64,000 bases of DNA from Vicinamibacteria bacterium (lineage in GTDB: Bacteria > Acidobacteriota > Vicinamibacteria > Marinacidobacterales > Marinacidobacteraceae): the NCBI GenBank assembly GCA_963555995.3, contig OY821641.1, forward strand, positions 2,592,001-2,656,000. Reading direction: 5' to 3'. Every line of letters starts with the position of its first letter. Within the stretch, counting starts at the first letter, position 1. A program made the translations under genes and the position numbers. This document shows, piece after piece, positions 42,758 through 61,572 of the stretch. Under the pieces are notes generated by a model. It searched no databases. It was not told the DNA's origin and was given only the letters and a program-made list of their open reading frames with translations.

Positions 42758-42891
42758 CACGGGCGGGCGTTCCCGATCGGCTGGTTCCTGCGCCGCCGCA
42801 CGATCAGCGAAGCACGGCCCGCCGCTGGTGACGGCGGATTCCGCTCGGCGATGGGGGAGGCGCGACCGACGGGCCGGATAGGATCAGCCCT

Positions 42892-44436: not shown

Positions 44437-44540
44437 TCAACAGCGTCCAGACCTCACCTTCCGCGAGTGAGCCCCCGGAAGCGGGTTGCGCCCATCCGGT
44501 GGCTTCCGGCGGCAACCGGCCTGATTGACGTGAGATTCCC

Positions 44541-44939: not shown

Positions 44940-45159
44940 GGGGTTGTTCGCGGAAGGCGTCCATGTCGAAGGTCCCCTGCCCACGCTTCAGTTTGCTCCG
45001 GAGCGGGGCCAGCCGGTCCGGGTCAATGCGCCGGGGGCAGAGGAGGAAACCTTCGGGGGTCTCTTCGAGCAGGAGCCGGTCACCCGGCTGCGCGCCCAGG
45101 GCGTCGAGCACCCGCGCTGGAAAGGTGACCTGGCGTTTTGACGTGACTTTCACCAGCAT
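44917..45159 (-). CDS. AbrB/MazE-family antitoxin
   Basis: VKVTSKRQVTFPARVLDALGAQPGD; AAGGAG RBS. Confidence 0.88.
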   Translation of the reverse strand: MLVKVTSKRQVTFPARVLDALGAQPGDRLLLEETPEGFLLCPRRIDPDRLAPLRSKLKRGQGTFDMDAFREQPHDPSLRD

Positions 45160-45315
45160 CGAGATCACTCCTTACCCAGAATCTATCAGGGTAAGGCGCC
45201 CTCGAGGAGCCACGCGGTGCGTTTCGCCGAGCGATCCCGAACAGGGGTCCAATCGTCAGGGGACATGCAGCGACGTTCAGCGACCTCTCGGCAACACCTG
45301 ATCAACCAGGGATCA

Positions 45316-45385
45316 ATTGAAAAAACTACGTTTTTTCAATGACTTATGCGTGGTTCGTTCTCTTATATCGTTTTTCGATCAAATA
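45316..45385. repeat. AT-rich site: 11-bp palindrome, caatgactta block and tcttatatcg..tttcgatcaaata block
   Basis: Both blocks recur at 47006-47058 on the other side of the Schlafen-ATPase gene. Confidence 0.75.
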
Positions 45386-45409
45386 TGAGAGGTGACCGCG
45401 GGTCAACCG

Positions 45410-46906
45410 TCAGGACGACGGACCCCCGTTTCCGCTTTCCTGCGCCGCCCACCACGGGATGTACCGCATTGCCTTGCGTGAGGCTGCCGCGCTTTCGGGG
45501 GTGATCGCACCGCTCTTCACGGCGTTCCGAATGAGGCGGGAGGCCGTTGCACGGTTCTGGTCGGAGATGCCGAACCGCCGCCGCAGCGACGTGTTCGTGA
45601 GGGCGTCACCGTTCACGTACCGGAGGCACGCATGGAGGTAGCAGGCCCAGTTCCGGTCGTCCGCCCCCAGCTCCCCGAGTTTCTTCCGGGCGTGAAGGGT
45701 CACGCGAGTGAAGCCTCGCGGCTTCTGGAACCGGGGCGGCGGAAGCTCGTGCGCCTCGATTTCCTCGACCACCCGGTCTATGCCCATGCCCCGTTCCTCG
45801 CTGAAACCGAACCGGCGCATGAGCGAGGCGAGCCGGTCGTTGCGGGACTGCGGCGGCGCGTCCACCAGGCGCTCCGTCTCCACCAGCGGTTCGCCCGGAT
45901 TCGTGATCTCGATCCGGCCGTCGAAGATCTCGACCATCGGCCCCGCCCCGCGCACCGCAAGGTCCTGATGGATCAGCGCGTTGGCCACCAGTTCCCGCAC
46001 CGCGACCGGGGGAAACGTCCACTCGATTTCCCGTCGGACCCGGCCAATGACTTCCCGTGACGGCAACTGGCCGTCCAACTGCTGGTTCAGGCGGTCGAGG
46101 CAGCGTGCGTAACCGTCCTCGAACTCCCACTCCCGGGCCTCGCCGGTGCGCCCGGAGCCGCGGTAACGGATGAGCCGCACCGCCTTCCGGCCCAGCTCGG
46201 GAAAGTCCGCCAGCCGTCGCGCCAGCAGCACCGCTCCCAGGTTCGTAACGTCCCACCCTCCGGAAACCCCCGGACGGAGCAACCCGTCCATGGCGAGCAC
46301 CTTGAGGGCGGAGCGCCGATTCCCCGGCGCGGGCTGACGCAGCCGCTCGAAGTACGCGGGGTAATCGAGCAACTGCGCGACCTCTGCCTCGGGGAGGTTC
46401 TCCGCCGCGATACGGGCCTCGAACGGCGTCGCGTCGAAGACGCGCCAGAGCGCCCGTTCGTATTCCGGGAACCTGTCGAGCCGCCGGGTCTGGCTTTCGA
46501 TGCGGAGGAATCTCTCCCCTCCGAAGGCCACCGGCTGGGTCCGCGCAGGGCTGACCTGGAGGACGACGACGCGCTTGTGGTCCACCTCCACTTCGTGGAA
46601 TTCAAAGGGAACGGACGGCGTCAACTGCTGGAGCAGCCACGGGATCAGCGGCTCGCTCCCCTTCGTTTCCTTCCGGGGCTGGAACCGGGTCCCCACGATC
46701 GCATGGGTGCCGTCTTCCACCCCCCAGACCAGGTAGCCGGCGAGCTGGCCGCCAAGCGCCGCGCTGTTGGCGAGCGCCGAGATGCGCTGGCCGATCATCC
46801 TCGGCTCGTTCTGGTTGACCTTGAACTCCACCCACTCGTTCTCCGCCGGCAGTCTGCACAACTCCCGGACCCGCGCCACGATGGACGCGACCTCCCCGCC
46901 GGTCAT
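45410..46906 (-). CDS. Schlafen/AlbA_2 plus HATPase_c_4 and wHTH protein
   Basis: ENEWVEFK, ISALANSA, YLVWGVED, RELVANALIHQD, SRNDRLASLMRR, EERGMGID, LTNTSLRRRFG. Confidence 0.9.
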   Translation of the reverse strand: MTGGEVASIVARVRELCRLPAENEWVEFKVNQNEPRMIGQRISALANSAALGGQLAGYLVWGVEDGTHAIVGTRFQPRKETKGSEPLIPWLLQQLTPSVPFEFHEVEVDHKRVVVLQVSPARTQPVAFGGERFLRIESQTRRLDRFPEYERALWRVFDATPFEARIAAENLPEAEVAQLLDYPAYFERLRQPAPGNRRSALKVLAMDGLLRPGVSGGWDVTNLGAVLLARRLADFPELGRKAVRLIRYRGSGRTGEAREWEFEDGYARCLDRLNQQLDGQLPSREVIGRVRREIEWTFPPVAVRELVANALIHQDLAVRGAGPMVEIFDGRIEITNPGEPLVETERLVDAPPQSRNDRLASLMRRFGFSEERGMGIDRVVEEIEAHELPPPRFQKPRGFTRVTLHARKKLGELGADDRNWACYLHACLRYVNGDALTNTSLRRRFGISDQNRATASRLIRNAVKSGAITPESAAASRKAMRYIPWWAAQESGNGGPSS

Positions 46907-47005
46907 CGTCCGACGCCTTCCGAGCCCGCCCGGCGTCCCGCCAAACCCGGTGCCCAGGCGATGGAACCCGAGGACTCCGGCGGGGTTGAAGAGCACATGG
47001 GCGCA

Positions 47006-47058: not shown

Positions 47059-47136
47059 GCATAGATTCTGGATTACTGGAGCACTTCCCGATCAAGGAAA
47101 CCCACGCCGCCCACGGACGTGGTGCCGTGTGAGCAG

Positions 47137-47160
47137 GGAGCGCCGGTCTTCAGACCGGCA
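47137..47160. repeat. REP-like palindrome
   Basis: ggagcgccggtcttcagaccggca. Confidence 0.8.
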
Positions 47161-47226
47161 TCGCCCGCCGTCGGCGGGCGAATGGCGCCGCCCCCCGCTC
47201 GAGACCCCGAATACGATTCGCGGTCC

Positions 47227-49239
47227 GTGTCCGACGATCCCCCCTATGCGCTGCCGAAAGATACGCGGGTCAAGGAATACAAGATCAAGCGAGTCCTCGG
47301 TAGGGGTGGGTTCGGGATCACTTATCTGGTTCACGACCTCAACCTGAAGGGCCCGGTAGCACTGAAGGAGTACTTCCCCGCTGAATACGCCCGACGTGTG
47401 CAAGACGGCTCGGTAAGGCCCATTTCGCCCGAGAGCCGGGCCAACTTCGATTGGGGCCGGAAGCGTTTCGTGGAGGAGGCGCAGACACTCCATCGGTTGC
47501 GGCATCCCAACGTGGTCCGCGTGCTCCAGTGTTTCGAAGCGCATGGCACGGCCTACATCGTGATGGAGCACATCAAGGGCAGGCCGCTGGAGAAGATTCT
47601 CGCTGAACGTGAGCGTCTTCCGGCAGCCGAATGGAAGTCACTGCTCGATCAGCTATTGAACGGGCTCGAGCATGTGCATGAGCACGGCTACCTCCACAGG
47701 GATGTCAAGCCGGGGAACATCATGATTCGTGACCACGGTGCCGAGCCAGTGTTCATTGATTTCGGCAGCGCTCGTGTAGACGCCCAGGATCCCCACACCA
47801 GGGTGCTAACGGAGGCATACGCCCCGCTGGAGCAAGGGATGGGAGAGAAGGAGGGGCCGCCGACCGATCTCTATTCACTCGCCGTCGTGTCGTACCGCGC
47901 GCTACTCGGCAAGCTGCCCCCCAAAGCGCAGAATCGCGCCGTTGAGGACACGATCGCTCGTCTGGAGCAGCGCGTGACCGGGGCAGAGCGCGCGTGGCTC
48001 GCTGCCCTCGATCAATGCCTGAACCTGTATCCCAGAGACCGCCCACAGTCGGTGGCAAACCTCCGGGAGATGCTGGCGAAACCGGCTGGCGCGTCGGACC
48101 GGATGGTCACGCCGCTCTGGGAGACGATCCGACATCCGGTACGTGCCGCACGAAGGCGGGCAGTGCGGAGATATGGCCAAGCGTTTGACCGCAAACTCGA
48201 GAAACACGGAAGCACGATATGGCTCATTGAGTACATGGGTTCGCCGTACGACGGGTGGAAAGTCATCAGGCGGGTAGAAGCTCTGGCGGGTGGAGAAATG
48301 AGCGCGGTCGTGTCCGAGCCCATGCACACCGGCGCCCGAGCTGGTAGGGACCCGCTCTTCGAAAGGCGAGTGGCCACGGAGGAGGAGGGGCTCGCGTGGC
48401 TCTATGAGTTGGAAACGAACGGCAGGATCGCGGAGGCAGCGCGGGAACGGATCGAGAGCTGGCGGAGCCCCAGGAACGAGGACAGCAATGGCAAGACCCT
48501 TTCCGGCGTTATCAGCGTGGATCTCCGCCTGATCCCGCTCCCGTCGTGGAATCGACGGAGTCCTGACGGTGGACCTTACGAATTCCCGACCGTAAACGGC
48601 GTCCGCGTGTGGGATCTCGGCATCCGAACTACAACGCTTCCACCAGTGGGCACCGATGGGGTAACCCGGTTCTCCGGGACCGTCACGGAGTCGCTCCCGT
48701 TGGTGTGGTGGGAAGTGGAGTGGTATCCGTACGGCGCACAGGACGGAAAGCCCCTGCCGTGGTATTTGCCGGGCTCTGTGGGATTCGCGACGTCCCTTGA
48801 GGTACGGAAGCACAAATCTGCCCGTCGCGCGCTACCGCCCAGCTTGGCAGAGAAGATCAGAGCGTGGGACGCCACGAATCACGAATTCGAGGCGATCTCG
48901 TTCAGGGTATCGGGCCAAGTATGGGCGCACGGGAAACACGCCCCGAGAACGTGGCAGCGCAAAAGCGCCCCCGGTGACGGTTGGTGGGTATTGGCAGCGG
49001 CGTTGCTGACGGCCGCGAGTTGCGTCACTCTGTGGGAGGGTGATCGGTGGGCGATCTTGCAGTTCCCTTCCATGCTCGGGGTCTGGATTCTGATCCTCTG
49101 GAAGAAGTTGTGGCGATTTGTTTCGTTTCATGGGAGTGGACTTGATTTCGGCAACGACCAGAGTGGGCTTGAAGGCGGCTGCGGCTGTCTTCTGGTCCTT
49201 GTGGCCTGTACGGTCGCTCCTTTCCTTCGGCACTGCTGA
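47227..49239 (+). CDS. Ser/Thr protein kinase with unknown C-terminal region and terminal TM segments
   Basis: LGRGGFG, VALKEYFP, HRDVKPGN, DFG, YAPLE, TDLYSL; GTG start at 47227 inferred by alignment with the kinase at 55945. Confidence 0.9.
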   Translation: MSDDPPYALPKDTRVKEYKIKRVLGRGGFGITYLVHDLNLKGPVALKEYFPAEYARRVQDGSVRPISPESRANFDWGRKRFVEEAQTLHRLRHPNVVRVLQCFEAHGTAYIVMEHIKGRPLEKILAERERLPAAEWKSLLDQLLNGLEHVHEHGYLHRDVKPGNIMIRDHGAEPVFIDFGSARVDAQDPHTRVLTEAYAPLEQGMGEKEGPPTDLYSLAVVSYRALLGKLPPKAQNRAVEDTIARLEQRVTGAERAWLAALDQCLNLYPRDRPQSVANLREMLAKPAGASDRMVTPLWETIRHPVRAARRRAVRRYGQAFDRKLEKHGSTIWLIEYMGSPYDGWKVIRRVEALAGGEMSAVVSEPMHTGARAGRDPLFERRVATEEEGLAWLYELETNGRIAEAARERIESWRSPRNEDSNGKTLSGVISVDLRLIPLPSWNRRSPDGGPYEFPTVNGVRVWDLGIRTTTLPPVGTDGVTRFSGTVTESLPLVWWEVEWYPYGAQDGKPLPWYLPGSVGFATSLEVRKHKSARRALPPSLAEKIRAWDATNHEFEAISFRVSGQVWAHGKHAPRTWQRKSAPGDGWWVLAAALLTAASCVTLWEGDRWAILQFPSMLGVWILILWKKLWRFVSFHGSGLDFGNDQSGLEGGCGCLLVLVACTVAPFLRHC

Positions 49240-49240
49240 C

Positions 49241-50584
49241 GTGTCCCGCTTGCACCTCACCTCATCCCTGACGGCTCTTCGTCCTCCTCCACGCACCAAT
49301 ACGGTGCCCGGTCCATGTCACCGCACGGTGCAGTGCCTCACACTCGTTGTGGCGACGCTGGCCTCCTTGGGCTCCACACGCGTTCAAGCGCAGCCACAGA
49401 CTACCGAACCCGCCGTCGTTCGCGTCCTGTTCGCCACTGAGGACGGGTTCGGGGCCGGGTCGGGGTTCTTCGTGAACGACACGCACATCGTCACGAACGA
49501 GCACCTTGTTTCGCATCCCAGTTCAGCTCCCGAATTGTTCGTTTTGTTTGCCGGGCAGGACACCCCGGAACCGGTAGAACTCGACTGGTCGAACCCCGAA
49601 CTCGATCTGGCCGTGCTTGGCTACACCGGTGGCACCTCTCGCGGGGTGCTCGCACTCACCACGGCCGATCCCGCTCGCGGCGCGGAAGTGTTCGCGCTCG
49701 GCTATCCCGGGCCGGCCGATGCCGGCTCGCTTGGCGGGGCCGCGTCGAGCACGCTCACCGAGGGCATCCTGAGCAGGGCGCCGTTCGAGGCGCAGTGGGG
49801 GCGCGACGGAACCGCCTTCGCCCGTGTGCTCCAGCACAGCGCCGCCATCAATCCGGGGAGCAGCGGAGGCCCGCTCGTGAATGCCTGTGGCGCGGTCGTC
49901 GGCGTGAACACGAGCGGCGCTTTCAGCGAGCTGCGGGACGCCGACGGCAACCTCATCGGGACGAGCGCCGCTCAGGGCATCTTCTTCGCCCTGACGGCTT
50001 CGGAACTCCGCGCGGAACTTGGGCGGCGCGGAGTGGACTTTTCCCTTGCCGAAGAGTGCGAATCCGAGGCGGGCGCAGCGCCGTTTCTTCCCTTGTTCAT
50101 CGGCCTGCTTCTGGTTGCGTTGGTCGCAGCCGGCGCCTGGTTCGCGTATCGCCGCTCGCCCCCGGGCGCGGCGGGCACCCCTGTCGGCAGTAACGGGCCG
50201 CCCGCCAAACCCGCAGAGGGCGCGGGCGGACGCCCACCGGTCCACGATCCGCCGACCCCTCCGCCAACCACGGCGCGGTTCACCGGCCGATCCGGGACAC
50301 CGGACCTGTCCGTGCCGGCCCTGAAGGACGCCCGCCACGGCATCAGCATCGGCCGCAATCCTCGACTCGTGGACCGGCCGCTCTCCGACCCGACGCTCTC
50401 CCGCCGTCACTTCCGCGTCAGCCTCGATAACGGCCGCCTGTTCGTCGAGGACCTGGGCTCGACCCACGGCACCTTCGTCAACGGCGAGCGCCTGAAGCCG
50501 TACCATGCCCGCCGCCTCGAAAACGGCGATACCGTCCGCGCCGGAAAGGGAGAATGGCGGTTCACCGCTACGGAGTCCGATTGA
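49241..50584 (+). CDS. Trypsin-like serine protease - TM - FHA protein
   Basis: GSGF..VTNEHLV (His), DLAVL (Asp), NPGSSGGPL (Ser); TM FLPLFIGLLLVALVAAGAWFAY; FHA GR..SRRH..STHGT; start uncertain. Confidence 0.88.
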   Translation: MSRLHLTSSLTALRPPPRTNTVPGPCHRTVQCLTLVVATLASLGSTRVQAQPQTTEPAVVRVLFATEDGFGAGSGFFVNDTHIVTNEHLVSHPSSAPELFVLFAGQDTPEPVELDWSNPELDLAVLGYTGGTSRGVLALTTADPARGAEVFALGYPGPADAGSLGGAASSTLTEGILSRAPFEAQWGRDGTAFARVLQHSAAINPGSSGGPLVNACGAVVGVNTSGAFSELRDADGNLIGTSAAQGIFFALTASELRAELGRRGVDFSLAEECESEAGAAPFLPLFIGLLLVALVAAGAWFAYRRSPPGAAGTPVGSNGPPAKPAEGAGGRPPVHDPPTPPPTTARFTGRSGTPDLSVPALKDARHGISIGRNPRLVDRPLSDPTLSRRHFRVSLDNGRLFVEDLGSTHGTFVNGERLKPYHARRLENGDTVRAGKGEWRFTATESD

Positions 50585-50985
50585 AACTGAAGAAACATCG
50601 CGTGCTGATCGTCGGACGGGGCCGGCAGGCGGATATCCGGTTGGACCACCGGACCGTGTCACGCCTGCATCTGGAGCTGGTGTTGGGAGCGGGCGGCGAG
50701 ATTCACGTCGCGGATCGGTCGAGCCGGAACGGCACTCGCGTCCGGTCGGACGGAAAGTGGCAGGCCCTCACCGCGCAGTCCGTGTCCCCTGCGGACCGCC
50801 TGCAGCTCGGCGATCTGGAGACCACGGTAGAGGACCTGCTGCAGCGAGTGCCGGCGGAGCCTCCCGACACCGGCCGGCGCTCTGACGACGGCCCGGGCGG
50901 GCGGCCGGATGCCGCCCCGGACCCGGATCTCCCTTCCGGCCCGGTTCGCCGGAATCCCGAAACCGGCGAAGTGATCCGCGGCTGA
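50581..50985 (+). CDS. FHA-domain protein
   Basis: VGR, VSRLH, SRNGT; TTGA overlap with the upstream stop. Confidence 0.85.
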   Translation: MKLKKHRVLIVGRGRQADIRLDHRTVSRLHLELVLGAGGEIHVADRSSRNGTRVRSDGKWQALTAQSVSPADRLQLGDLETTVEDLLQRVPAEPPDTGRRSDDGPGGRPDAAPDPDLPSGPVRRNPETGEVIRG

Positions 50986-50990
50986 ACACG

Positions 50991-51755
50991 ATGGCGGACC
51001 CCGGCGAACTTCGCGACCGCCTGACGACGGCGGCGCCCGCCATCGGGCTCGGGTCGGCGTTCGTGGCCGTGTTGAGCCTGCTGCTGACCGAAGGCTGGGC
51101 CGCCGACTTCCTGCTCGACCGCAACTCGACAGTGTTCCCCTATCCGTTCACGATCCAGAACGTCATGTGGCTGCTCTTCTTCGGCGCCTTGGGAGAACTC
51201 TGGGTCCGCTTCCAGCGGAGCAGTCTCGAACGGGTCCAACTGCGGCAGAAACTCCTGCCGGAGGACGAGGAAACGATGCTGCGCATTCAGGACCTGGGCG
51301 CGGTCCGCGCGCGTTGCCGGGGGGAAGAGCGGTTCTTCGTTCAACGGCTCGTGTCCCGCTGCGTCCTCCAGTTCCAGAGCTCGAAATCCACCGAACGCGC
51401 CAACGCGCTCCTCGACTCGTCGCTCAACCTGATGCAGCACGAAGTGGACAACAAGTACGCGATCGTCCGCTATCTGGTGTGGGTCATCCCGACGATCGGC
51501 TTCATCGGCACCGTGGTGGGAATCGCCGCCGCGCTCAACAGCGCAGGCGCCGCCGAGGACTACCAGGACCCCGCGCTCCTCGGAGAACTGACCCGCGATC
51601 TGGGCGTCGCTTTCTACACTACGATGCTGGCGTTGATCCAGTCGGCATTGCTGGTTCTCGCCCAGAATCAGGTGCAGGCGCGCGAGGAGGGAGCGCTGAA
51701 CGAGGCGGGCCAGTACTGTCTCGACAACCTGATCAACCGACTCTACGAGAAGTGA
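50991..51755 (+). CDS. MotA/TolQ/ExbB proton-channel family protein
   Basis: IPTIGFIGTVVGI...LGVAFYTTMLAL; four hydrophobic segments. Confidence 0.88.
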   Translation: MADPGELRDRLTTAAPAIGLGSAFVAVLSLLLTEGWAADFLLDRNSTVFPYPFTIQNVMWLLFFGALGELWVRFQRSSLERVQLRQKLLPEDEETMLRIQDLGAVRARCRGEERFFVQRLVSRCVLQFQSSKSTERANALLDSSLNLMQHEVDNKYAIVRYLVWVIPTIGFIGTVVGIAAALNSAGAAEDYQDPALLGELTRDLGVAFYTTMLALIQSALLVLAQNQVQAREEGALNEAGQYCLDNLINRLYEK

Positions 51756-51765
51756 GGCAGCGCCC

Positions 51766-52422
51766 ATGCCCGTGTATCGAACCCCCGATGGCCGGATCGT
51801 GGAGGAGCGGACCAAGCAGCGGCTGCTCGGGGGACGCCGGAAAACCACCGCTCCCGACAGCGAGCGGACCACGGTTGCGAACGCCGGGGACGAAGCCCCG
51901 CCGTCCCCGAATCCGCCGCGCCGCGGCTACGGTGATCCCACCGTGGTGCACGCGCCTCGTACCCGGGGTACCGGCGCCACGTCTCCCCCAGTAGCTCCCG
52001 ACAGGGAAACGACGCGGCTTCATGGAAGCATCGGTGGAAGCGCGACGGGCGTGGAGGGAGCGCCGCCCGTCGTGGACCCCGTGGCGGGGTGGCTCGTCGT
52101 GGTGGACGGCCCCGGAACCGGGACGGACCTGCGAATCGGCATCGGCCAGAACGTAGTTGGCCGCGATCCCGAGAACCGGATCGGACTCGCTTTCGGGGAC
52201 CGGAAGATCTCCCGCCGCGATCACCTCCGGGTCAACTACGACCATGAGCGCCGCGTGTTCTCGGTGGTGCCCGGGACCAGCGCGAACCTCGCGTATCTGA
52301 ACGGGACGGCGATCGAACAGCGCTCGGTCCTCGCGGCGGGCGACACGATCCGCATCGGACGCACCACGCTGCGCTTCGTCGCCTTCTGCGGAGACGACTT
52401 CAACTGGCCGGATGAGGACTGA
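51766..52422 (+). CDS. FHA-domain protein with Thr-rich disordered N-terminus
   Basis: PVAGWLVVVDGPG, VGR, ISRRDH, YLNG, IRIGRTTLRFVAFCG..F.W. Confidence 0.87.
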   Translation: MPVYRTPDGRIVEERTKQRLLGGRRKTTAPDSERTTVANAGDEAPPSPNPPRRGYGDPTVVHAPRTRGTGATSPPVAPDRETTRLHGSIGGSATGVEGAPPVVDPVAGWLVVVDGPGTGTDLRIGIGQNVVGRDPENRIGLAFGDRKISRRDHLRVNYDHERRVFSVVPGTSANLAYLNGTAIEQRSVLAAGDTIRIGRTTLRFVAFCGDDFNWPDED

Positions 52423-53542
52423 TCGCGGCGGCCCGGCACGGCTCGCTCGCGGAGCCAGCGCCGCTACGGCCCTCACCGTCCTGGCGGTCGGCTGCGGAAC
52501 CTCGGGGGTGGGTGCGGACCCGCCGTGGTTCCTCGTCGCGCTTGGGACGGCGGCGCTCCTGGCCTTGGCGGTGTTCGGGCTGGAATTCGCGTTCCGAGGT
52601 TTGCGGATGCGGCGCGCCGCGGTCGGCTCGCCGGGCTCGGGAATCCGCCACGCCCACGGCCAGTCCCTGGGCAAGCGGGAGCGACAGGAAGACGACCTCG
52701 GGCACATTGACGGCGACACCCTCGACCCGGAAGGCAACCATTCCGTCGTCCTGGTGGCGGACGGAATGGGCGGCCACGCCGCCGGCGAGGTGGCGAGCCG
52801 CGCCGCCGTCCGCGGCTTCGTGCAGGCGTACGGAACGCGGGGACCCGCCCCGAACCGCCTCCGGTCGGCGCTCGACCGGGCGAACGCGGCCATCGCCGAA
52901 GAGAGGGATCGGGACAGGGCGCTCTTCGGCATGGGAACCACCCTGGTCGCGGCGGCGGTGACCGAACAGGGACTCCACTGGATCAGCGTCGGCGATTCCC
53001 CGCTCTATCTCTTCCGCGCCGGACGGCTCGAACGGCTGAACGAGGACCATTCGATGCGGCCCGTGATCGCCCGCCTGCTGGAGGAAGATCCGGAAGCGGC
53101 GTCCAACTACAGCCCGAACCAGCTTCTTTCCGCGCTCATGGGCGGCCACATCGAGAAGACGGACGCCCCGGCGACGCCCCGACGACTCGAAGCCGGGGAC
53201 ATCGTTCTGGTAGCGACCGACGGCCTTGAGACCCTCGATGAGGAGGAGACGGAGGCCCTGATCGCGGAGCATCGCGGCGGAGGTCCGGACGCGGTCCGCG
53301 ACGCCCTGCTGCGAGCCGTCGAGGCGAAGGATCATCCCCGTCAGGACAACACGAGCCTGTTCGTGATCGAGGTCGAGCGGAGTTCGGTGAACGGCGGACC
53401 GTCAAGGGACCCGGGCGAGGCGGCGGCAGCGGAACCAGCCACGGAACCTCCGGGAGACGAGGCCGACGGGCGCTCGGCAGAGCCGCGCCCCGACGGACCG
53501 GCAGGCAGCGACGAAGGAGGCGGCGATGCGCGGGACGGGTAG
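52412..53542 (+). CDS. Membrane-anchored PP2C-family Ser/Thr phosphatase
   Basis: RQEDD, VADGMGGH, MGTTL, VGDS, DHS, ATDGL, QDNTS; N-terminal LAVGC and TM. Confidence 0.92.
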   Translation: MRTDRGGPARLARGASAATALTVLAVGCGTSGVGADPPWFLVALGTAALLALAVFGLEFAFRGLRMRRAAVGSPGSGIRHAHGQSLGKRERQEDDLGHIDGDTLDPEGNHSVVLVADGMGGHAAGEVASRAAVRGFVQAYGTRGPAPNRLRSALDRANAAIAEERDRDRALFGMGTTLVAAAVTEQGLHWISVGDSPLYLFRAGRLERLNEDHSMRPVIARLLEEDPEAASNYSPNQLLSALMGGHIEKTDAPATPRRLEAGDIVLVATDGLETLDEEETEALIAEHRGGGPDAVRDALLRAVEAKDHPRQDNTSLFVIEVERSSVNGGPSRDPGEAAAAEPATEPPGDEADGRSAEPRPDGPAGSDEGGGDARDG

Positions 53543-54929
53543 CGCTGCCCTCGTGGCGGCCGTCGTTCTCTTGGGTTTTGCCGCACTGGTGCGAGCGCAG
53601 CCACCGGACCTCAGCGACGTCCGGGAACAGGTGGTCATCGTGCGGGCCTTCGATGCCATGGGGCGCGCGCTGGGCGACATCTCCGGTTTCGCGGTCGGCG
53701 GCGGGTTCGTGGCCACGAACGCCGCGCTGCTCGCCGGAGCGGAGGACGTGGTGATCGTTCTGCCGGAGACCCGCGACGAGTTTCCGGCCGCGGTGGCCGT
53801 TCTGGAACGGCGTTCGGGGGTGGCGGTCCTCCAGGCGGACGGCTTCGGAGCCGCGGGATTGCGCTTCGCCGCCCCGGAAGCGGAGCCGGCGCAGGGCCAG
53901 GGGCTCTACCTGCCCCGCTTCGCCTCCGACGGAACGCTGGACGCGGAAGCGGTTCGCGGTTCGATTTCCGAACTGCGGATCATCGAGCCGACGGCGGTGG
54001 GGGAGCGGGACGTGTTGCTCTACCGCCACAACGCTCCGGCGACGGCGCGCCAGTACGGGATGCCGCTGCTCAACGACTGCGGTGAGGCGGTCGGGCAGTT
54101 GCGCACCGACCCCGACATGTCGCGCACCACCCTGAACGCCCGGCCCGATCCGGGACCCGCCCCGTTCGCGGCAGCGGCGGTGGCGGTTCGCGACGTGCTC
54201 GCTGCGGCCGGGGCCGAACCGGGGCTCGCGGACGAGCCGTGCCTCGATCCGGTCGCCGCAGCGGAGGCGGCGCGGCGGGAGGCGGACGCGGCAGCGGCGC
54301 GGGCCGAGGCCGCCGCCGCGGAAGCGGCAACAGCCGGCGAGGAGCGTGACGCCGCCCGCGAGGAAGCCGAGGCTGCCCGGACGGCGGCGGAAGAGAGTCA
54401 GGCGGAGCGGGAGTCTGCGGAGGCCGAGGCGGAGCGCCTGGCGAGACAGCGCCGCTGGCTTGGGGCTGCGGTGATTCTCGGGATGGCGGTGGTCGTCGCC
54501 GTCATCTTTCTGCTCGCCCAGCGGCTCCGCCGCCGCCGTGAGGCGCTCGCCGCCTCGAAGAAGGAACTGGAAGGGGCCCTCCGCCCGGCCGCTTTCTCCT
54601 GTCTCCTCGACGGCGCCCACGAGAGCGGGCGGGGCTACGCGCTGAAGATCAGCGCCGAGCAGCTTGGTTCGCCCTCGGGGGTGGTCGTGGGGAGGAACCC
54701 CGCCCAGGCGGGAGCCTTGCTCGACCACCCGGAAGCCTCGCGCGAACACCTCCGGCTCACGGCGCGGGGTGACGAACTTGCCGTGACGGATCTCCACTCC
54801 ACGAACGGGACCTTCGTGAACGGCGAGCGGCTGGAAGCGGGAGCGGAGAGCCCAGTGGCGGACGGCGCCGAGATCGGCGTCGGATCGGCCATCACGCTGC
54901 GCCTGACGGTCCAGCGAACCGAAACATGA
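53526..54929 (+). CDS. Catalytically dead trypsin-like - coiled coil - TM - FHA protein
   Basis: Signal peptide; SGF..VATNAALL, SGVAVL, RQYGMPLLNDCG (triad lost); Ala/Glu coiled coil; TM; FHA GR..SREH..STNGT. Confidence 0.82.
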   Translation: MRGTGSAALVAAVVLLGFAALVRAQPPDLSDVREQVVIVRAFDAMGRALGDISGFAVGGGFVATNAALLAGAEDVVIVLPETRDEFPAAVAVLERRSGVAVLQADGFGAAGLRFAAPEAEPAQGQGLYLPRFASDGTLDAEAVRGSISELRIIEPTAVGERDVLLYRHNAPATARQYGMPLLNDCGEAVGQLRTDPDMSRTTLNARPDPGPAPFAAAAVAVRDVLAAAGAEPGLADEPCLDPVAAAEAARREADAAAARAEAAAAEAATAGEERDAAREEAEAARTAAEESQAERESAEAEAERLARQRRWLGAAVILGMAVVVAVIFLLAQRLRRRREALAASKKELEGALRPAAFSCLLDGAHESGRGYALKISAEQLGSPSGVVVGRNPAQAGALLDHPEASREHLRLTARGDELAVTDLHSTNGTFVNGERLEAGAESPVADGAEIGVGSAITLRLTVQRTET

Positions 54930-55888
54930 GGCCGATCCGCCGCGAAGCGAGCATCTTCAGCGTCTCGGCGATTGATCTGTTCGCGTCGGCGCTCGGCGCC
55001 TTCGTGATCGTCTCCTTCGTCCTGTTCCCTTACTTCCCGAACACCGGTGAGGTGCCCCCGGCCCCGGTGGCTCCGCCGACGCCCCCGCCGCCGGTACCCG
55101 CGCCGCCGACCGGCATTTCGGCGGCGGAGGCAGCCGCCCTCGAAGCGCGGATCGCGGAGTTGGAAGGGGAACTCGGCGCCGCCCGGAGCCGGGAGTCGGA
55201 CCTGGGGGAGGAACTCGGCGACGCAAGGAGCCGGGAGTCCGAACTGTCGCGGGCTCTCGACGAGGCGACCTCCACGATCAGGAAGCTGCCGCCGCTCGAC
55301 CTGGTGATTGCGCTCGACACCACGAATAGCATGACGAACGAAGTCGTTGGGCTTCGCGAAGAGATCGCCGGTCTCGCGGAACTCCTCGTGGAGTTGACCG
55401 ATGACGCGGCGGTGGGCCTGATCGAGTTCAAGGACCGGTGCGATCCCGTGAACGCAGTGCGGGTTACCGGGCTGCGGCCGGTGAACCGTCAGACGGCACA
55501 GGAACTCGCCGTCTTCGCCCGATCCATGATCCCTGGCACGCCGTGCAATTTGACCGCGGACGAGGACTACGCCGAAGCCCTTCGCGCGGCGGTGCTGTCA
55601 GAGTGGCGACCCGTCTCGGAACGGCGATCCATCGTGCTGATCTCGGACAATCCCGCTCACGACGACATGCGCACTCAAGCAATCTCCGACGCGCGGGCTT
55701 TTGCAATGCGGCCGGGGGCTCGCCACACCGTCTCGTCGGTCTTTGTGGACACCAGCCCGAACCCGCGACACCCCGACACGGAGGACTTCATGCGTCAGGT
55801 GACGCAGGCCGGACGAGGCCGATTCGTCGAGGCCGACCGGAATGCGTCGTTATCGGTGACCATCCTCCTGGCGGTCTTCCGGAGCTGA
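54926..55888 (+). CDS. ExbD/MotB-like Asp-bearing TM anchor, coiled coil and vWA domain
   Basis: FSVSAIDLFASALGAFVIVSFVLF; Pro-rich linker; MIDAS-like DLVIALDTTNSM; IVLISDNPAH; ATGA overlap. Confidence 0.8.
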   Translation: MRPIRREASIFSVSAIDLFASALGAFVIVSFVLFPYFPNTGEVPPAPVAPPTPPPPVPAPPTGISAAEAAALEARIAELEGELGAARSRESDLGEELGDARSRESELSRALDEATSTIRKLPPLDLVIALDTTNSMTNEVVGLREEIAGLAELLVELTDDAAVGLIEFKDRCDPVNAVRVTGLRPVNRQTAQELAVFARSMIPGTPCNLTADEDYAEALRAAVLSEWRPVSERRSIVLISDNPAHDDMRTQAISDARAFAMRPGARHTVSSVFVDTSPNPRHPDTEDFMRQVTQAGRGRFVEADRNASLSVTILLAVFRS

Positions 55889-55944: not shown

Positions 55945-58900
55945 ATGGCCCGTGAGTACCCCGACGCGCTCCCAGCGGGCTATCGGCTCGAGGAATTCAA
56001 GATCGTCCGCGTGCTCGGCCAAGGAGGCTTCGCGATCACCTATCTGGCGAAGGACAACTACCGGGATCAGGAGGTGGCCCTCAAGGAGTATTTCCCGGCC
56101 GGCAACGCCATGCGAACCGGCGGGACGCGTGTGGAGCCGACGCCGGGCGCCCGCGAGGTCTTCGACTGGGGATACCGACGCTTTCTCGATGAGGCGCGAG
56201 CGCAATCGAAGTTCCGCCATCCCAACATCCCGGTGCTCCATCGGTATTTCCGCGCCAACGGCACGGCCTATGTCGCCATGGATTACATCAAGGGACCTTC
56301 CCTTTCGGATCTTCTCGCTGATCGCGGCAGTCTCTCCGTGAACCAGTGGCGTCCATGGCTGGATCGTCTGCTCGACGCACTGGAACACGTACATGGCCAC
56401 GACTACCTGCACCGAGATATCACGCCTCGCAACATTTTGATCCGAGAGTCTGACAACCAGCCGGTTCTTATTGATTTCGGGGCCGCCCGGGTCGCTGGCG
56501 GCGACAAGACCCGAACGGTGGTCTTGACCAAGGCCTACGCCCCGCCAGAGCAAGGTTCAGCCCGCGCGAAGCAGGGACCCTACACGGACATCTATGCACT
56601 CGGAGCAGTGTCGTACTGCGTGCTCACCGGTGAGCTGCCAGCCACCCCGTCTGACCGGGCTGCTGGGGAGGAGCATGAGCCCCTCGCACAGCAACTGGAA
56701 GAGGCTTTCGACTGGGTCGTTGCCGTGGACCGGGCGCTCTGTCTGCGGCCGAAGGACCGTCCACAGAAAACCGCCGCGTGGCGGAAGGAACTGCACGAAG
56801 CAGCCGCGAAGATGTGGTTGTCGGGCGAGCCCGATCAGATAGCGGCCCGGGATGCCGAAGGACTGACGCCCCTCCACCGCGCCGCCGCGGCAGAGCCGGT
56901 TCCCGGCGTCGTGGCGACCTTGCTCGAACTCGGTGCCGACATCCACGCTGTGGCGGGAAGGGACGACGTCGTTCTCTTTGAAAGGCACGGCGACACGCCG
57001 CTACACCGGGCTGCGGCGGCCAATCCGAATCCGGACATAACGGCGGTTCTGCTAGACCGCGGTGCCGACGTTCGGGCGCAGGACCTGATAGGTGAACAGC
57101 CTCTCCACCACGCAGCGAGGCACAACTCCAATGCGAAAGAGATCGCTCTGCTGCTCGACCGCGGTGCCGACATCCACGCCAAGGACGACTCTGGTAGCGC
57201 GCCTCTACACGCGGCCGCCGAGGCCAATTCCCATCCAGGCGTGCTGACGCTCCTGCTTGACCGCGGCGCCGATATCCACGTCAGAAACCGGGATGGAGAA
57301 ACGCCGTTGCACCACGCTGGGGAGAACCCACACGCCGACGTCGTGACCCTTCTCCTCGACTTTGGCGCCGACCTGCACGCGCGGGATGCCAACGGGAATA
57401 CGCCGCTCCATGTCACGGCGTGGCATAACAGAAATCCGGAAACATTCAGGCTCCTGTTGAATCGCGGTGGCGACCTGCAGGCACGGAACAGTTCCGGCGC
57501 TACGCCCCTCCACTGCGCGGTGCGAGGGAGTCAGAGCAGCGAAGTGTTGGCCCTTCTTCTCGACCAGGGCGCCGACCCTCACGCAGTTGACGGCGAGGGG
57601 CGGACAGCCCTGCACTGGGCCGCATCGGAAGACGCCATGGAGACGGTGCAACTGCTCATTGAGCGCGGCGCGGACATCGAGGCGAAAGACTCCGATGGAC
57701 GTCGCCCGCTCCATCTCGCGGCGTCTGAGGACGCCTCCAGCGCGGCCGAATTGCTCCTCAGTCGCGACGCGTGCGTCCGAGCACGCGACCAAGGCGGGTG
57801 TACTCCACTTCACCGGGCCGCGGGCCGGGATTGCCTGCGGGTCTCACAACTGCTGCTCGACAACGGCGCAGACGTGGGAGGGCGGACTCCGACCGATACC
57901 CGAAACTGGACCTCGAAGCTGGATCTTGGTCGAGCGGCAGGTGAGGAGTTGGAGACGCTATGGTGGTTGGCCTTCGACAGCTACGATCCGACCACCAAGG
58001 TTCCGATCTCGATACATGACCCAGACTGGGCGCTGTGGTTCCTGGCATGTGACAACCACTGCGACATCACCGGCTGGGCAGAGACAACGCCTCTACACAC
58101 GGCGGCGCGAACCAATGGCCAGCGTGTGACCGCGCTGCTCCTTGACCGCGGCGCCGATCCAGCGGCCAGAGATTCCACCGGAAGGACACCGCTTCACGTG
58201 GCGGCCCTGAACAACGCCGTGGATGCCGCGAGACTTCTGATTCAGTCGTCTCCGCGCAGCTTGGGCGTCAAGGACACCGCCGGCAGGACACCGCTGCACT
58301 TTGCCGCCTGGGGCGATGCCAGAGAGACGGCGGAACTACTCCTCCGCCATCGTGCCGAGATCAAGTGCAGCGAGGAGACACGCGCCAAGACTTGGTTCTG
58401 GAAGGAGAGCCGCAGGCCCGCCGACATTGTGTGCCTCTTGCTCAGTGGTCCATTCGGCGAACCGGGAAGCGGCTGCCGCGAAGACGCGAAAGCGGTAAAG
58501 GGCTGGCACGACCTTCGGATGCTCACGGAACGACTCCTGCACAAGGGCCATACACCGTTGCATTGGGCTGCGTTCGGTGACTCTCGGGACGTAGCCGAAC
58601 TGCTTCTCGATAAAGGTGTGAATGTCCATGGAGGTGCGGATGACGGAATGACGCCCTTGGACCTGGCAGCGCTCGGCGACGCCTTGATCACCGCACGGCT
58701 GCTCATAGATTGCGGAGCGGATGTCTGCGGTCGGAAAGGTCATGCCACGCCACTGCATTGGGCCGCGCTTGGAAACAGCCGCGAAACTCTGGCACTACTG
58801 TTGGAACGCGGTGCTGATGTCGCAGTGGATATCGGTACAGCGAAGTCCGAAGGAATGACCGCTCTTTTCTGGGCGGTACTCGGAAAGGCTTCCCACGCTG

Positions 58901-61572
58901 CGGAGTTACTTCTGGAACACGGAGCAGAGCTCGGACAGGCCGTGGGTTATGGCCTCGTGTCGCGCCCCTGGATGGACTGGAAGGACGCGCGCGAGGGTGT
59001 TGAGGCACTCAGCGAGGAGTCGAATTCCACGCTGCTTCACTGGGCAGCACTGCGCGATGCCACGGACGTCGTGGACATGTTGCTTGACCGCGGCCTCGAT
59101 CCGGAGGCGGAAGACGCCGAGGGCCGGACGCCGCTGGACTACGCCGCCCAAGGTAACGCCGTCGGTGCGTTGGAGCGTCTTCTGGATCGCGGGGCCGACA
59201 CGAGTGGCAGTCGACGGACGAGCGGCACACCACTTCACAGCGCGTCCCGCGCCGATGCAGTGGACGCCGCGCATCTGTTACTGGAACGTGGATCGGATGT
59301 GCAGGCCGGCGAATCCGACATCGGCACGCCGCTCCACATGGTCCGTTCGACGGAGCTCGCGTCGCTTCTCCTCGATAGTGGGGCCGACGTTGACGCGCGA
59401 GACTCCAACGGAAGCACTCCACTTCACAGCGCCAACGGCAACCGAGCCGTCGCCGAGCAACTGCTTGAACGGGGTGCCGACATCGAAGCGACTGAAGGCT
59501 CTGGAAATACGCCGCTGCACCATGCCGCCGGGGCAGAGAAAGGAAGTGATGTTGCGGAAATCCTGCTCGATCGTGGCGCATCCATCAATGTACCGAACCA
59601 CAACGGAAATACCCCTCTGCACCTAGCCGCATCCGAGACCGGACACAACGATGCCGGAAAGGCGACTGTACTTTGCCTACTCAGGCGGGGTGCTGATGTC
59701 GACCTCGTCAACGCGGATGGCAAGACGCCGCTGATGGTTGCCATCGAAGGGTCCGAAGACTGGGAGGACGTGGTTCGGGATGTGGCAGCATGCTTCCTTG
59801 ACCACGGAGCGGACATCAATGCCCGTGACACACGTGGAAGTACGCCGCTCCACCTGGCGGCTCGATGTCGGTATTCGTCGGTGAGTGAGGAACTGACCTC
59901 GCTGCTCCTTGAGCGTGGTGCCGCCGTTGACGCTGCAGACAACGACGGTCGTACGGCGCTCCATGTTGCTGCAGGCACAGGGCATTCGCGGGTGTCGGCC
60001 GAGCTAATCCGTCGCGGAGCCGACGTCCACGCCCGGACGAAAGAGGGGGAGACGCCGCTGTACAGTGCCGCCGATGGAGCGGCGTGGGGACGATCCGCTG
60101 AGGCTGTGGAACTCCTTCTGGATGAGGAGGCGATGGTTCACGCGAGAACGGAGGACTGCTGGACCCCTCTTCACGCGGCGGCAAGTAGCGGAGCGAAGGA
60201 AGCAGTTGAACTGCTCCTGGATCGCGGAGCGGACTGCCAGAGCCAGACGCGATCCGGCGAGACGCCACTGCATCTGGCGGCGTATCTGCATCTTGTCCAG
60301 GAGTCGGACAATTCGCCCCCGACCGTCAGCAGGCAGCAACTCGAAGTTGTGCAACTGCTCTCGCGTGGGGGTTGCGAGTGGAATGTGAAGGATGAGAGTG
60401 GAGATACGCCACTGAGGTGCTATGTGAGGCAGTGGTGGAGATACAGGAATCGCATGCCCGACGGCCTTGACGGCATCGAATTCGTCCGGCGTTGCGGTGT
60501 GGATGATTCCGCCTTAGTCAATGCCGCCGTCGAGGACCTCGTTCGAGTAGCACCCGAGATGCGTAGCCGATCACTATCTGGCGATCCCGAGAACGCGTCC
60601 GAATCTCTGGACACCCGCACTTACGAGGATTCCAAGGCCACTGTTGATTTTCTTCTCGATCGCGGCGCCGACGTGAATGTACTCAACGCAGCCGGGCGCG
60701 CGCCGATCCACATCGCGGCGGCGGCGGGCGTACCGTCCGTCGTCGAATTCCTTCTGGACCGAGATGCGGAGGTCAACCGCCCCGATGCAAGCGGAAACAC
60801 GCCGCTTCACTCTTGGGCTGAGCAAGTCCTCCTGGATCGCGGTGCTGACGTGATGGCGCGCAATGCGGACGGCGAAACCCCGCTGCACTCGGCAGCGGGT
60901 CGTGATGACTATGTAGCGGCGGAGTTCCTGCTTCGCCATGGTGCAGATGTTGACGCGAGGGACAAGAACGCCGCGACGCCCCTGCATCGGGCCGCTTTCG
61001 AGAATTCGACGAGTGTCGCGGAACAGCTACTGGATCAGGGTGCCGACATCGCGGCCGAAGACCAGAGCGCTGAGACTCCGTTGCACGCCGCGATCCGCGG
61101 TGGCGCCTGGGAAACAGTCGAATTCCTACTGGAACGCGGGGCGGACCCGCAGTCCATCGAGGAGTACGAGTCGGAGGGTCTGGTGGAGACTGGGGCGTCG
61201 ATCGAGGACCGCATCTGTGCCGGGAAGATGCTCCGGATCAAGCGAATCGAGGAGGGCCTGTTTGATGCGCTATGGGAGGGGCTGGACGAACTCTCCCGCC
61301 GCAAGGGATGGGATGAAGGTATGCGCGTCTTTCGGCGGTTACATGAGTGTGTGGAAGACTGGGGCAGTGCGCGATACATGTTCGACTACCCAGAGGAGAA
61401 TCGCGGATTCGGCGCAAGTCTTGAAGGGCTGCTCCGGGAAGAGGGTGAGGAAGGACCGCTGATGCGCCAGCTTCGAGACAAAGCCGACTTCGAATGGCTC
61501 CGCGATCTGGTGTGGGAGCTCAGAGACGGCACGTTGCTGGACCCAGAGCGGTGGGTTGAACGGATGGACTGA
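55945..61572 (+). CDS. Ser/Thr protein kinase with about 35 ankyrin repeats
   Basis: LGQGGFA, VALKEYFP, HRDITPRN, DFG, YAPPE; repeated GxTPLHxAA...LLDRGAD. Confidence 0.93.
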   Translation: MAREYPDALPAGYRLEEFKIVRVLGQGGFAITYLAKDNYRDQEVALKEYFPAGNAMRTGGTRVEPTPGAREVFDWGYRRFLDEARAQSKFRHPNIPVLHRYFRANGTAYVAMDYIKGPSLSDLLADRGSLSVNQWRPWLDRLLDALEHVHGHDYLHRDITPRNILIRESDNQPVLIDFGAARVAGGDKTRTVVLTKAYAPPEQGSARAKQGPYTDIYALGAVSYCVLTGELPATPSDRAAGEEHEPLAQQLEEAFDWVVAVDRALCLRPKDRPQKTAAWRKELHEAAAKMWLSGEPDQIAARDAEGLTPLHRAAAAEPVPGVVATLLELGADIHAVAGRDDVVLFERHGDTPLHRAAAANPNPDITAVLLDRGADVRAQDLIGEQPLHHAARHNSNAKEIALLLDRGADIHAKDDSGSAPLHAAAEANSHPGVLTLLLDRGADIHVRNRDGETPLHHAGENPHADVVTLLLDFGADLHARDANGNTPLHVTAWHNRNPETFRLLLNRGGDLQARNSSGATPLHCAVRGSQSSEVLALLLDQGADPHAVDGEGRTALHWAASEDAMETVQLLIERGADIEAKDSDGRRPLHLAASEDASSAAELLLSRDACVRARDQGGCTPLHRAAGRDCLRVSQLLLDNGADVGGRTPTDTRNWTSKLDLGRAAGEELETLWWLAFDSYDPTTKVPISIHDPDWALWFLACDNHCDITGWAETTPLHTAARTNGQRVTALLLDRGADPAARDSTGRTPLHVAALNNAVDAARLLIQSSPRSLGVKDTAGRTPLHFAAWGDARETAELLLRHRAEIKCSEETRAKTWFWKESRRPADIVCLLLSGPFGEPGSGCREDAKAVKGWHDLRMLTERLLHKGHTPLHWAAFGDSRDVAELLLDKGVNVHGGADDGMTPLDLAALGDALITARLLIDCGADVCGRKGHATPLHWAALGNSRETLALLLERGADVAVDIGTAKSEGMTALFWAVLGKASHAAELLLEHGAELGQAVGYGLVSRPWMDWKDAREGVEALSEESNSTLLHWAALRDATDVVDMLLDRGLDPEAEDAEGRTPLDYAAQGNAVGALERLLDRGADTSGSRRTSGTPLHSASRADAVDAAHLLLERGSDVQAGESDIGTPLHMVRSTELASLLLDSGADVDARDSNGSTPLHSANGNRAVAEQLLERGADIEATEGSGNTPLHHAAGAEKGSDVAEILLDRGASINVPNHNGNTPLHLAASETGHNDAGKATVLCLLRRGADVDLVNADGKTPLMVAIEGSEDWEDVVRDVAACFLDHGADINARDTRGSTPLHLAARCRYSSVSEELTSLLLERGAAVDAADNDGRTALHVAAGTGHSRVSAELIRRGADVHARTKEGETPLYSAADGAAWGRSAEAVELLLDEEAMVHARTEDCWTPLHAAASSGAKEAVELLLDRGADCQSQTRSGETPLHLAAYLHLVQESDNSPPTVSRQQLEVVQLLSRGGCEWNVKDESGDTPLRCYVRQWWRYRNRMPDGLDGIEFVRRCGVDDSALVNAAVEDLVRVAPEMRSRSLSGDPENASESLDTRTYEDSKATVDFLLDRGADVNVLNAAGRAPIHIAAAAGVPSVVEFLLDRDAEVNRPDASGNTPLHSWAEQVLLDRGADVMARNADGETPLHSAAGRDDYVAAEFLLRHGADVDARDKNAATPLHRAAFENSTSVAEQLLDQGADIAAEDQSAETPLHAAIRGGAWETVEFLLERGADPQSIEEYESEGLVETGASIEDRICAGKMLRIKRIEEGLFDALWEGLDELSRRKGWDEGMRVFRRLHECVEDWGSARYMFDYPEENRGFGASLEGLLREEGEEGPLMRQLRDKADFEWLRDLVWELRDGTLLDPERWVERMD

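What the first reader, a model, noticed from the sequence alone, without database searches (positions are those of the whole stretch)
50991..55888. MotA/ExbB channel whose apparent partner carries vWA instead of a peptidoglycan-binding domain
Seen: no ExbD/MotB gene follows the MotA-like gene, but the 54926 protein has a short basic N-terminus, one TM with an Asp (SAIDLF), a Pro linker, a coiled coil with a 14-aa duplication and a MIDAS-like DTTNS. Established: ExbD/MotB/ZorB use a TM Asp in 5:2 motors. Inference: a motor that grips a periplasmic protein through vWA.
Basis: partly seen in the sequence, partly recalled or inferred. Interest (0 to 1): 0.72.

Follow-up and report, generated by a model that had tools for sequence, protein, structure and literature searches.

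The report
Ion motor with swappable periplasmic head
A TolQ/MotA-type membrane protein and an anchored protein with an invariant membrane aspartate likely form an ion-driven motor of a kind already predicted in 2025, but here its outer head is exchanged between unrelated domains and it sits in a kinase-phosphatase-protease operon of untested function.

Summary
Observation confirmed. 50991 is a MotA/TolQ/ExbB protein with its channel threonines invariant (68 of 68). 54926 has a membrane Asp17 (234 of 234 aligned relatives), a stalk and a vWA head. The 14-aa duplication is real but incidental. The two genes travel together (72 of 80 genome loci; reciprocally 29 of 36 long metagenome loci), even in Gemmatimonadota, where they stand alone. 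The core idea is in print as a prediction (TPH-vWA/TolQ-like motors, PMC12204202), and this scan reported the operon four times on other DNA. Added here: (1) this is a clade apart from the twin-vWA/PEGA-FGE type that probably matches the paper; (2) its head is exchangeable (integrin-beta-I-like vWA here, another vWA, or YfaP/DUF2135), with at least 8 changes on the A-subunit tree; (3) the kinase/PP2C/FHA/live-and-dead-protease module is usual but dispensable. Pairing likely (~0.85). Output unknown; best guess is a phospho-regulated motor gripping a periplasmic partner (0.5), rival an outside-in, Zorya-like sensor (0.3). Binding and rotation are untested. New variant of a predicted kind; interest 0.5.

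The parts
50991..51755 (+). A subunit: MotA/TolQ/ExbB-family protein, 254 aa; channel-lining Thr174 (51510-51512) and Thr210 (51618-51620)
   Evidence: Pfam PF01618 E 2.1e-12; T174 and T210 invariant in 68 of 68; best fold matches TolQ/ExbB/MotA/PomA, none at E<=0.001
54926..55888 (+). Likely B (axle) subunit, 320 aa: basic N-terminus, TM with Asp17, Pro linker, helical stalk, vWA head
54971..55027 (+). Transmembrane segment (residues 16-34) with Asp17 at 54974-54976
   Evidence: hydropathy scan; Asp in 234 of 234 relatives with a residue at that column, 27 of 261 gapped
55055..55276 (+). Pro-rich linker (44-61) and helical stalk (66-117) with the 14-aa duplication at 55169-55252; length variable
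55289..55885 (+). vWA head resembling the integrin beta-I domain; MIDAS-like D131-x-T133-x-S135 (55316-55330), E213, D241
   Evidence: D131 255/256, T133 240/256 (S 16), S135 255/256, E213 258/260, D241 257/258; 28 of 31 PDB profile hits are integrin beta chains; fold search
49118..50584 (+). Trypsin-like protease - TM - FHA with intact His/Asp/Ser motifs; true start probably later than the listed TTG (inferred)
   Evidence: Pfam Trypsin_2, FHA; motifs; TM
50554..50985 (+). Small FHA protein
   Evidence: Pfam FHA E 4.1e-10
51766..52422 (+). Disordered-looking N-terminus plus C-terminal FHA
   Evidence: Pfam FHA E 2.2e-8
52412..53542 (+). PP2C phosphatase with an N-terminal hydrophobic segment
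   Evidence: Pfam PP2C_2; NCBIfam Stp1 E 8e-35, below cut-off
53526..54929 (+). Signal-like N-terminus - pseudo-trypsin (His, Asp and Ser of the triad replaced) - Ala/Glu stalk - TM - FHA
47119..49239 (+). Hanks-type Ser/Thr kinase with intact catalytic motifs and an unannotated C-terminus; GC 62% against 69% for the core operon
55945..61572 (+). Ser/Thr kinase with about 28 ankyrin repeats; GC 63%

Best explanation
The 50991 and 54926 proteins likely form a 5:2 ion-driven motor whose axle would end in a metal-dependent vWA head that grips a periplasmic partner, with the neighbouring kinase, phosphatase and FHA proteins likely switching it on and off. Shown: the domain anatomy, the invariant Asp17 and Thr174/Thr210, the linkage of the two genes, and exchange of the head. 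Inferred: five A subunits enclose two B helices; protonation of Asp17 inside the Thr ring drives relative rotation, as in TolQR/ExbBD/MotAB; the stalk carries that motion to the head, whose MIDAS would take an acidic residue of its ligand. Further inferred: the live and dead protease-TM-FHA proteins dock on the rim of the pentamer, as the FHA-TM part of GltG is predicted to do on AglR, and threonine phosphorylation assembles the unit in response to a periplasmic cue, as PpkA/PppA/Fha1 do for the T6SS. The ligand is unknown; the motor core can exist without the phospho-module.
For: Asp17 in 234 of 234 and MIDAS residues near-invariant. Thr174/Thr210 in 68 of 68. A-subunit model best matches TolQ/ExbB/MotA. 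B gene within the locus in 72 of 80 genome loci and 57 of 60 full-length ones, with no ExbD match in those 80. Reciprocal test: A gene in 29 of 36 metagenome loci of 10 kb or more found with the B anchor. In 27 Gemmatimonadota loci 26 hold B, 24 of them convergent with A, and none has FHA or PP2C, so the pair stays together when the rest is gone. Outside that phylum FHA is in 51 of 53 loci, PP2C in 48, kinase in 48, trypsin-FHA in 36; a live plus a dead protease occur together in 29 of 37 loci with such proteins, the window included. Published AF3 models put the Asp of TPH-vWA proteins in the Thr ring of TolQ-like pentamers (PMC12204202 section 8). Precedents: GltG FHA+TMH on AglR (PMC11761067 passages); PpkA/PppA/Fha1 (PMC3224232 passages).
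Against: The 41-residue anchor profile shows no detectable homology to one canonical ExbD (hhalign probability 0.2%); the likeness rests on position of the Asp. No conserved outer-membrane or periplasmic target gene emerged from clustering the neighbours. The head is not always vWA (YfaP in 6 of 75 B genes of the genome loci; 24 of 117 B matches). 7 of 36 long metagenome loci lack A; four B-YfaP genes sit alone among unrelated genes. Five Gemmatimonadota genomes with the pair gave no FHA match at all (MAGs, completeness not shown), so phospho-control is not essential. In the window A and B are 3.2 kb apart, separated by three genes.
Confidence: 0.5

Rival explanations
1. Same 5:2 unit, opposite direction: a Zorya-like outside-in sensor. 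The head anchors or senses at the envelope, ion flow or rotation of the A ring recruits FHA proteins and kinases in the cytoplasm, and the output is a phosphorylation or proteolysis response to envelope attack (phage, predator or host).
For: All recognisable partners face the cytoplasm or are receptor-like, and no outer-membrane target is conserved. The head changes at least 8 times on the A tree and the kinases carry varied C-termini (ankyrin, Sel1, PEGA, FGE-like, TerB-DnaJ), as sensor and conflict systems do. Patchy spread: 4 of 301 genomes of the own phylum; three copies on one contig (L009, L010, L033). Weak ZorA matches (PADLOC E 3.9e-7; NCBIfam E 0.015). Window neighbours include PIN-AbrB, Schlafen AlbA_2 and AAA-PD-(D/E)XK genes.
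Against: No ZorA tail, no OmpA-type B domain and no ZorC/D/E match in the operon. The ZorA matches cover only the shared channel. Flanks in other genomes are mostly housekeeping by eye. No phenotype data.
Confidence: 0.3
2. A GldLM/PorLM-like arrangement: the axle head engages an FGE-fold or PEGA protein, which is the load, and the phospho-module is an add-on.
For: A PEGA-FGE gene adjoins A in 20 of 21 sister-clade loci; FGE-like domains occur in 19 of 80 loci of this clade, often fused to the kinase. PorK/GldK use an FGE-like fold in the ring driven by PorLM (PMC12421860 passages).
Against: The window's operon has no FGE-like or PEGA domain, nor do any of the 27 Gemmatimonadota loci. In the T9SS PorM contacts PorN rather than the FGE-fold PorK.
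Confidence: 0.1
3. 54926 is only a membrane-anchored adhesin or sensor; the Asp is structural, and 50991 works with a housekeeping ExbD or alone.
For: No detectable homology to ExbD; orphan B-YfaP genes exist; the genes are not adjacent here.
Against: An invariant charged residue in the membrane across three head types and two clades; linkage kept in rearranged, reduced loci; the genome's ExbD genes have their own ExbB.
Confidence: 0.1

Closest known systems
TPH-vWA / TolQ-like motors predicted in PMC12204202 (Mol Biol Evol 2025, section 8, Fig. 4c-d; Idiomarina homologs)
   Same: TolQ-like gene without tolR/exbD; TM-tethered vWA whose helix carries a conserved Asp; conserved Thr ring in A. 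A sister family with twin B genes matches this clade's A at hhalign probability 99.5%, 29% identity, and its anchors match weakly.
   Different: Separate clade on the A tree (quick tree, long branch). One B gene here (two in 3 of 80 genome loci and 34 of 80 metagenome loci). Integrin-beta-I-like vWA or YfaP head. Kinase/PP2C/FHA/protease genes present, against 0 of 21 sister loci; the paper's main text has 0 hits for 'kinase' and 1 for 'FHA', that one FhaC. That the sister family is the paper's family is inferred; no Idiomarina TPH-vWA sequence was compared.
ExbBD, TolQR, MotAB, AglRQS 5:2 motors (PMC9389320 passages)
   Same: A-subunit family and fold; single-TM partner with a conserved Asp.
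   Different: B has no ExbD/TolR or OmpA-type periplasmic domain and no detectable ExbD homology; no TonB/TolA C-domain protein, FliG or Glt partner in the operon.
Myxococcus AglRQS-GltG
   Same: TolQ-like pentamer beside FHA-plus-TM proteins; GltG TMH and FHA are predicted to bind AglR.
   Different: Here FHA is C-terminal and the periplasmic part is a trypsin domain, not TonB-C; GltG model matches cover FHA only; no outer-membrane Glt genes.
Zorya ZorAB
   Same: MotA-like channel with a TM-Asp partner (ZorB Asp recalled, not from a call) and possible cytoplasmic output.
   Different: No ZorA tail, no OmpA domain, no ZorC/D/E; matches far below cut-off.
T6SS threonine-phosphorylation pathway PpkA/PppA/Fha1
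   Same: Kinase, PP2C, FHA and a periplasmic vWA acting on an envelope machine.
   Different: vWA is on the axle, not the kinase; no T6SS structural gene matched among the nine operon proteins.

Membership tests
MotA/TolQ/ExbB family (A subunit) | PF01618 above gathering cut-off | tested here: met
   47.3 bits against 22.9
MotA/TolQ/ExbB family (A subunit) | Conserved pore threonines in the two channel helices | tested here: met
   T174 and T210 invariant in 68 of 68
TPH-vWA/TolQ-like motor (PMC12204202) | [quoted passage not shown] | tested here: met
   No ExbD match in 80 genome loci; ExbD in 9 of 80 metagenome loci, in the one examined part of a separate DUF3450-ExbB-ExbB-ExbD cluster
TPH-vWA/TolQ-like motor (PMC12204202) | TM-tethered vWA with a conserved Asp in the helix, no SHLS motif | tested here: met
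TPH-vWA/TolQ-like motor (PMC12204202) | B genes predominantly in heterologous pairs | tested here: not met
   One B gene in this genome; pairs in 3 of 80 genome loci and 34 of 80 metagenome loci. The paper says 'predominantly', so this marks a variant rather than excluding it
TPH-vWA/TolQ-like motor (PMC12204202) | B helices insert in an A pentamer (5:2 model) | not testable with these tools
   The complex tool takes at most 4 copies of a chain and 6 chains; a 5:2 model could not be run
TPH-vWA/TolQ-like motor (PMC12204202) | Homology to the Idiomarina proteins used in the paper | tested here: inconclusive
   No such sequence found in the supplement passages; compared only with unnamed twin-B loci
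ExbD/TolR/MotB (B subunit) | ExbD or MotB/OmpA family match | tested here: not met
   No such Pfam/NCBIfam hit; hhalign to one ExbD 0.2%
vWA with MIDAS | vWA fold and DxSxS...T/E...D motif | tested here: met
   Fold; D-x-T-x-S, E213, D241 near-invariant; E213 aligns with the Glu of integrin beta-8 NIDTPE (its role as metal ligand is recalled)
vWA with MIDAS | Binds a divalent metal and a ligand | not testable with these tools
   needs experiment
Zorya | ZorA tail, OmpA-type ZorB, ZorC/D/E effectors | tested here: not met

The most novel reading that the evidence does not exclude
A 5:2 ion motor that is a modular platform: a fixed Asp-bearing axle onto which evolution repeatedly bolts different heads (an integrin-beta-I-like vWA, another vWA, YfaP/DUF2135), gated by Ser/Thr phosphorylation and FHA docking and wired to a live/dead pair of periplasmic proteases. 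It would be the first phosphorylation-switched member of the MotAB/ExbBD/TolQR class that my searches could find, and a bacterial case of force applied to an integrin-like MIDAS domain.
Probability: 0.3. Interest if true: 0.82.

Novelty: new variant of a known kind. Interest (0 to 1): 0.5.

Why it matters
5:2 motors power flagella, nutrient uptake, division, gliding and Zorya defence. TPH-vWA motors exist only as a prediction with no phenotype. This clade offers a compact test case: a single B gene, named cultured carriers (Aliiglaciecola, Halioxenophilus, Nioella), natural head swaps that point to what the head does, and a natural two-gene minimal version. If the kinase/FHA wiring is real it adds a regulatory layer not found for these motors in my literature searches.

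Tried and rejected
Complex prediction, 4 A (33-254) + 2 B (1-50): no verdict, score 0.16 against a mark of 0.32, controls not folded, non-native stoichiometry; no evidence either way. RNA runs: no RNA holder listed. The 14-aa duplication as a functional feature: rejected, absent in close relatives. NCBIfam Tsi2 and Pfam ACBP4_C matches to the stalk: coiled-coil noise below cut-off. PD-T4-6, MADS6 and Legionella Ank matches: generic kinase or ankyrin similarity. Clustering of unannotated neighbours in 80 loci gave mostly shadow ORFs and no conserved extra gene. PDB sequence search with the YfaP-headed alignment hit only coiled coils; Pfam missed that head and the Atlas identified it. The careful A tree did not finish; quick trees were used. 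In one search the label 'single' wrongly covers L077 and L079, which have two B genes. Literature searches with no relevant paper; one search returned only PMC12204202. The library lacks most subscription papers, and the paper's model and sequence folders were not seen. A findings search for the head swap returned nothing.
Full report
What is in the window. The finding lies in a run of nine genes on the + strand: Ser/Thr kinase (47119), trypsin-TM-FHA (49118), FHA (50554), MotA/TolQ/ExbB protein (50991), FHA (51766), PP2C (52412), pseudo-trypsin-TM-FHA (53526), the TM-stalk-vWA protein (54926) and a kinase with ankyrin repeats (55945). The genome has three MotA_ExbB genes and three ExbD genes; the ExbD genes sit with the other two, and there is one copy of the 54926 anchor. 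By tblastn and phmmer-style local search the FHA matches of the window's queries in this genome fall only in this operon.

The A subunit. 50991 passes the Pfam cut-off. In 68 aligned relatives the motif P167-x-x-GFIGT174 and A207-F-x-T210 are invariant. Its model (pLDDT 89) ranks TolQ, ExbB, MotA and PomA first, although none reaches E 0.001 (best 1.8e-3; TM up to 0.60).

The B candidate. Of 261 relatives held from two searches, 234 have a residue at position 17 and all 234 have Asp. The model gives a helix 11-36, a stalk 66-117 and a Rossmann-like head that matches vWA domains. A profile search of the PDB returns 31 sequences, 28 of them integrin beta chains (E 3e-4 to 1e-2), with Glu213 on the Glu of beta-8 NIDTPE and the WR motif shared. 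D131, T/S133, S135, E213 and D241 are near-invariant, so the head probably keeps an integrin-beta-I-like metal site; the metal role of those residues is recalled knowledge. Against the axle reading, the anchor profile shows no homology to one canonical ExbD. The 14-residue duplication is a recent, unconserved stalk extension.

Linkage. The A protein found 80 loci in species-representative genomes of six phyla. B lies in 72 of 80, and 57 of 60 with full flanks; none has an ExbD match. Of the 8 without B, five genomes were searched: four hold B elsewhere (about 12, 17 and 120 kb away, or on another contig) and one gave only a weak sister-type match. Searching the other way with the 41-residue anchor, A is in 41 of 80 metagenome loci and 29 of 36 that are 10 kb or longer; four long loci hold an orphan B-YfaP gene, two of them apparently the same region. 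These loci include many near relatives and are not independent samples. The most telling case is Gemmatimonadota: 26 of 27 loci hold B, 24 convergent with A, with no FHA or PP2C gene, and five such genomes gave no FHA match anywhere. The pair is therefore the stable unit.

Head exchange. The same anchor carries three heads: the window's vWA type, a second vWA type (Latescibacterota, Nioella, Hyphomonadaceae) and a domain that the Atlas identifies as YfaP/DUF2135 (TM 0.95 over residues 112-238). One further head of unknown type was seen (L221). On a quick tree of 56 A subunits the head label needs 8 changes where 2 is the minimum; YfaP needs 5, at least 4 forced by starred branches. Caveats: the second-vWA profile was built from its own members, three B assignments came from outside the locus, and L035 and most near-identical Longimicrobiales rows were left out. 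Exchange may be by domain recombination or by replacement of whole B genes.

The phospho-module. Outside Gemmatimonadota, FHA is in 51 of 53 loci, PP2C in 48, a kinase in 48 and trypsin-FHA in 36. Live and dead proteases occur together in 29 of 37 loci that have one; in the dead ones the catalytic Ser is replaced, mostly by Tyr or Phe. Some loci add a thermolysin-FHA protein, and the kinases carry variable C-termini. The system is patchy: 4 of 301 genomes of the window's phylum. The nearest named A relatives are Acidobacteriota.

Prior art and the sister clade. PMC12204202 (section 8 read in full; passages; supplement passages) predicts TolQ-like pentamers with TPH-vWA partners, mostly as heterologous pairs, with the Asp in the Thr ring. 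The anchor profile weakly finds such pairs in 151 genomes of the Aliiglaciecola family sample. In 21 of those loci there are two B genes (21), A (20), a PEGA-FGE gene (20) and no FHA, PP2C or kinase. Their A proteins form one side of a starred, long branch (quick tree) and are 29% identical to this clade. I infer this is the paper's family. Four earlier notes of this scan describe the present operon on other DNA; I had found the paper before reading them, and they are not independent evidence.

Mechanism. Best reading (0.5; the pairing alone about 0.85): an A5B2 ion motor whose stalk carries a gripping head, assembled or gated by threonine phosphorylation and FHA docking, with the protease-TM-FHA proteins at the rim. 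The analogies are GltG on AglR (PMC11761067 passages) and PpkA/PppA/Fha1 (PMC3224232 passages). The main rival (0.3) keeps the same unit but reverses the flow: a Zorya-like sensor whose variable head reads the envelope and whose output is cytoplasmic phosphorylation. Nothing here shows binding, rotation, ion specificity or expression.

Verdict. A real, conserved and uncharacterised system. Its core is a published prediction and has been met before in this scan; the separate clade, the exchangeable head, the integrin-like metal site and the dispensable phospho-module are the additions. New variant of a known (predicted) kind; interest 0.5.

Noticed in passing
window 42064-46996: Island-like genes upstream: PIN (42064-42747, -), AAA-ATPase-like with PD-(D/E)XK nuclease (42892-44436), AbrB/MazE-PIN pair (44541-45168, -), Schlafen AlbA_2 with HATPase_c_4 (45410-46996, -).
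   Followed up: partly
window 47119-49239 and 55945-61572: Both kinases have lower GC (62-63%) than the core operon (69%) and genome (70%), hinting that the kinases or their C-termini are swapped in; the C-terminal 380 residues of the first have no Pfam match.
   Followed up: partly
L088, L089, L125-L138, L140-L144: Sister operon: PEGA-FGE protein, TolQ-like A, sometimes a 440-aa protein with no Pfam match, twin TPH-vWA genes and two lipoprotein-like genes; the FGE fold recalls PorK/GldK of the PorLM-driven ring.
   Followed up: partly
L194, L196, L210, L222: Stand-alone TM-Asp/YfaP genes with no A gene within the locus; A may lie elsewhere in those genomes.
   Followed up: no
L221:5345-6190: B anchor with a fourth, Cys-rich head that matches none of the three local head profiles.
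   Followed up: no
L166 and similar (L168, L169, L170, L203): Twin-B subtype of this clade with FHA genes and a kinase-FGE; in L166 a TPR-CHAT gene and a DUF3450-ExbB-ExbB-ExbD-TPR cluster lie upstream.
   Followed up: partly
L034:4943-7246, L039:17566-20124, L070:6406-9120: Thermolysin (M4) protease fused to FHA beside the operon: a second protease class in the same protease-FHA design.
   Followed up: no
L060:7276-9893 and other Longimicrobiales loci: The reduced A+B pair is preceded by a 384-aa protein with no Pfam match (cluster in 25 loci) and, in L060, an LRR protein; possible substitutes for the lost module.
   Followed up: no
L009, L010, L033: Three copies of the operon on one Latescibacterota contig.
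   Followed up: no
window 61951-63087 (-): AAA/STAND-like ATPase just downstream on the opposite strand.
   Followed up: no
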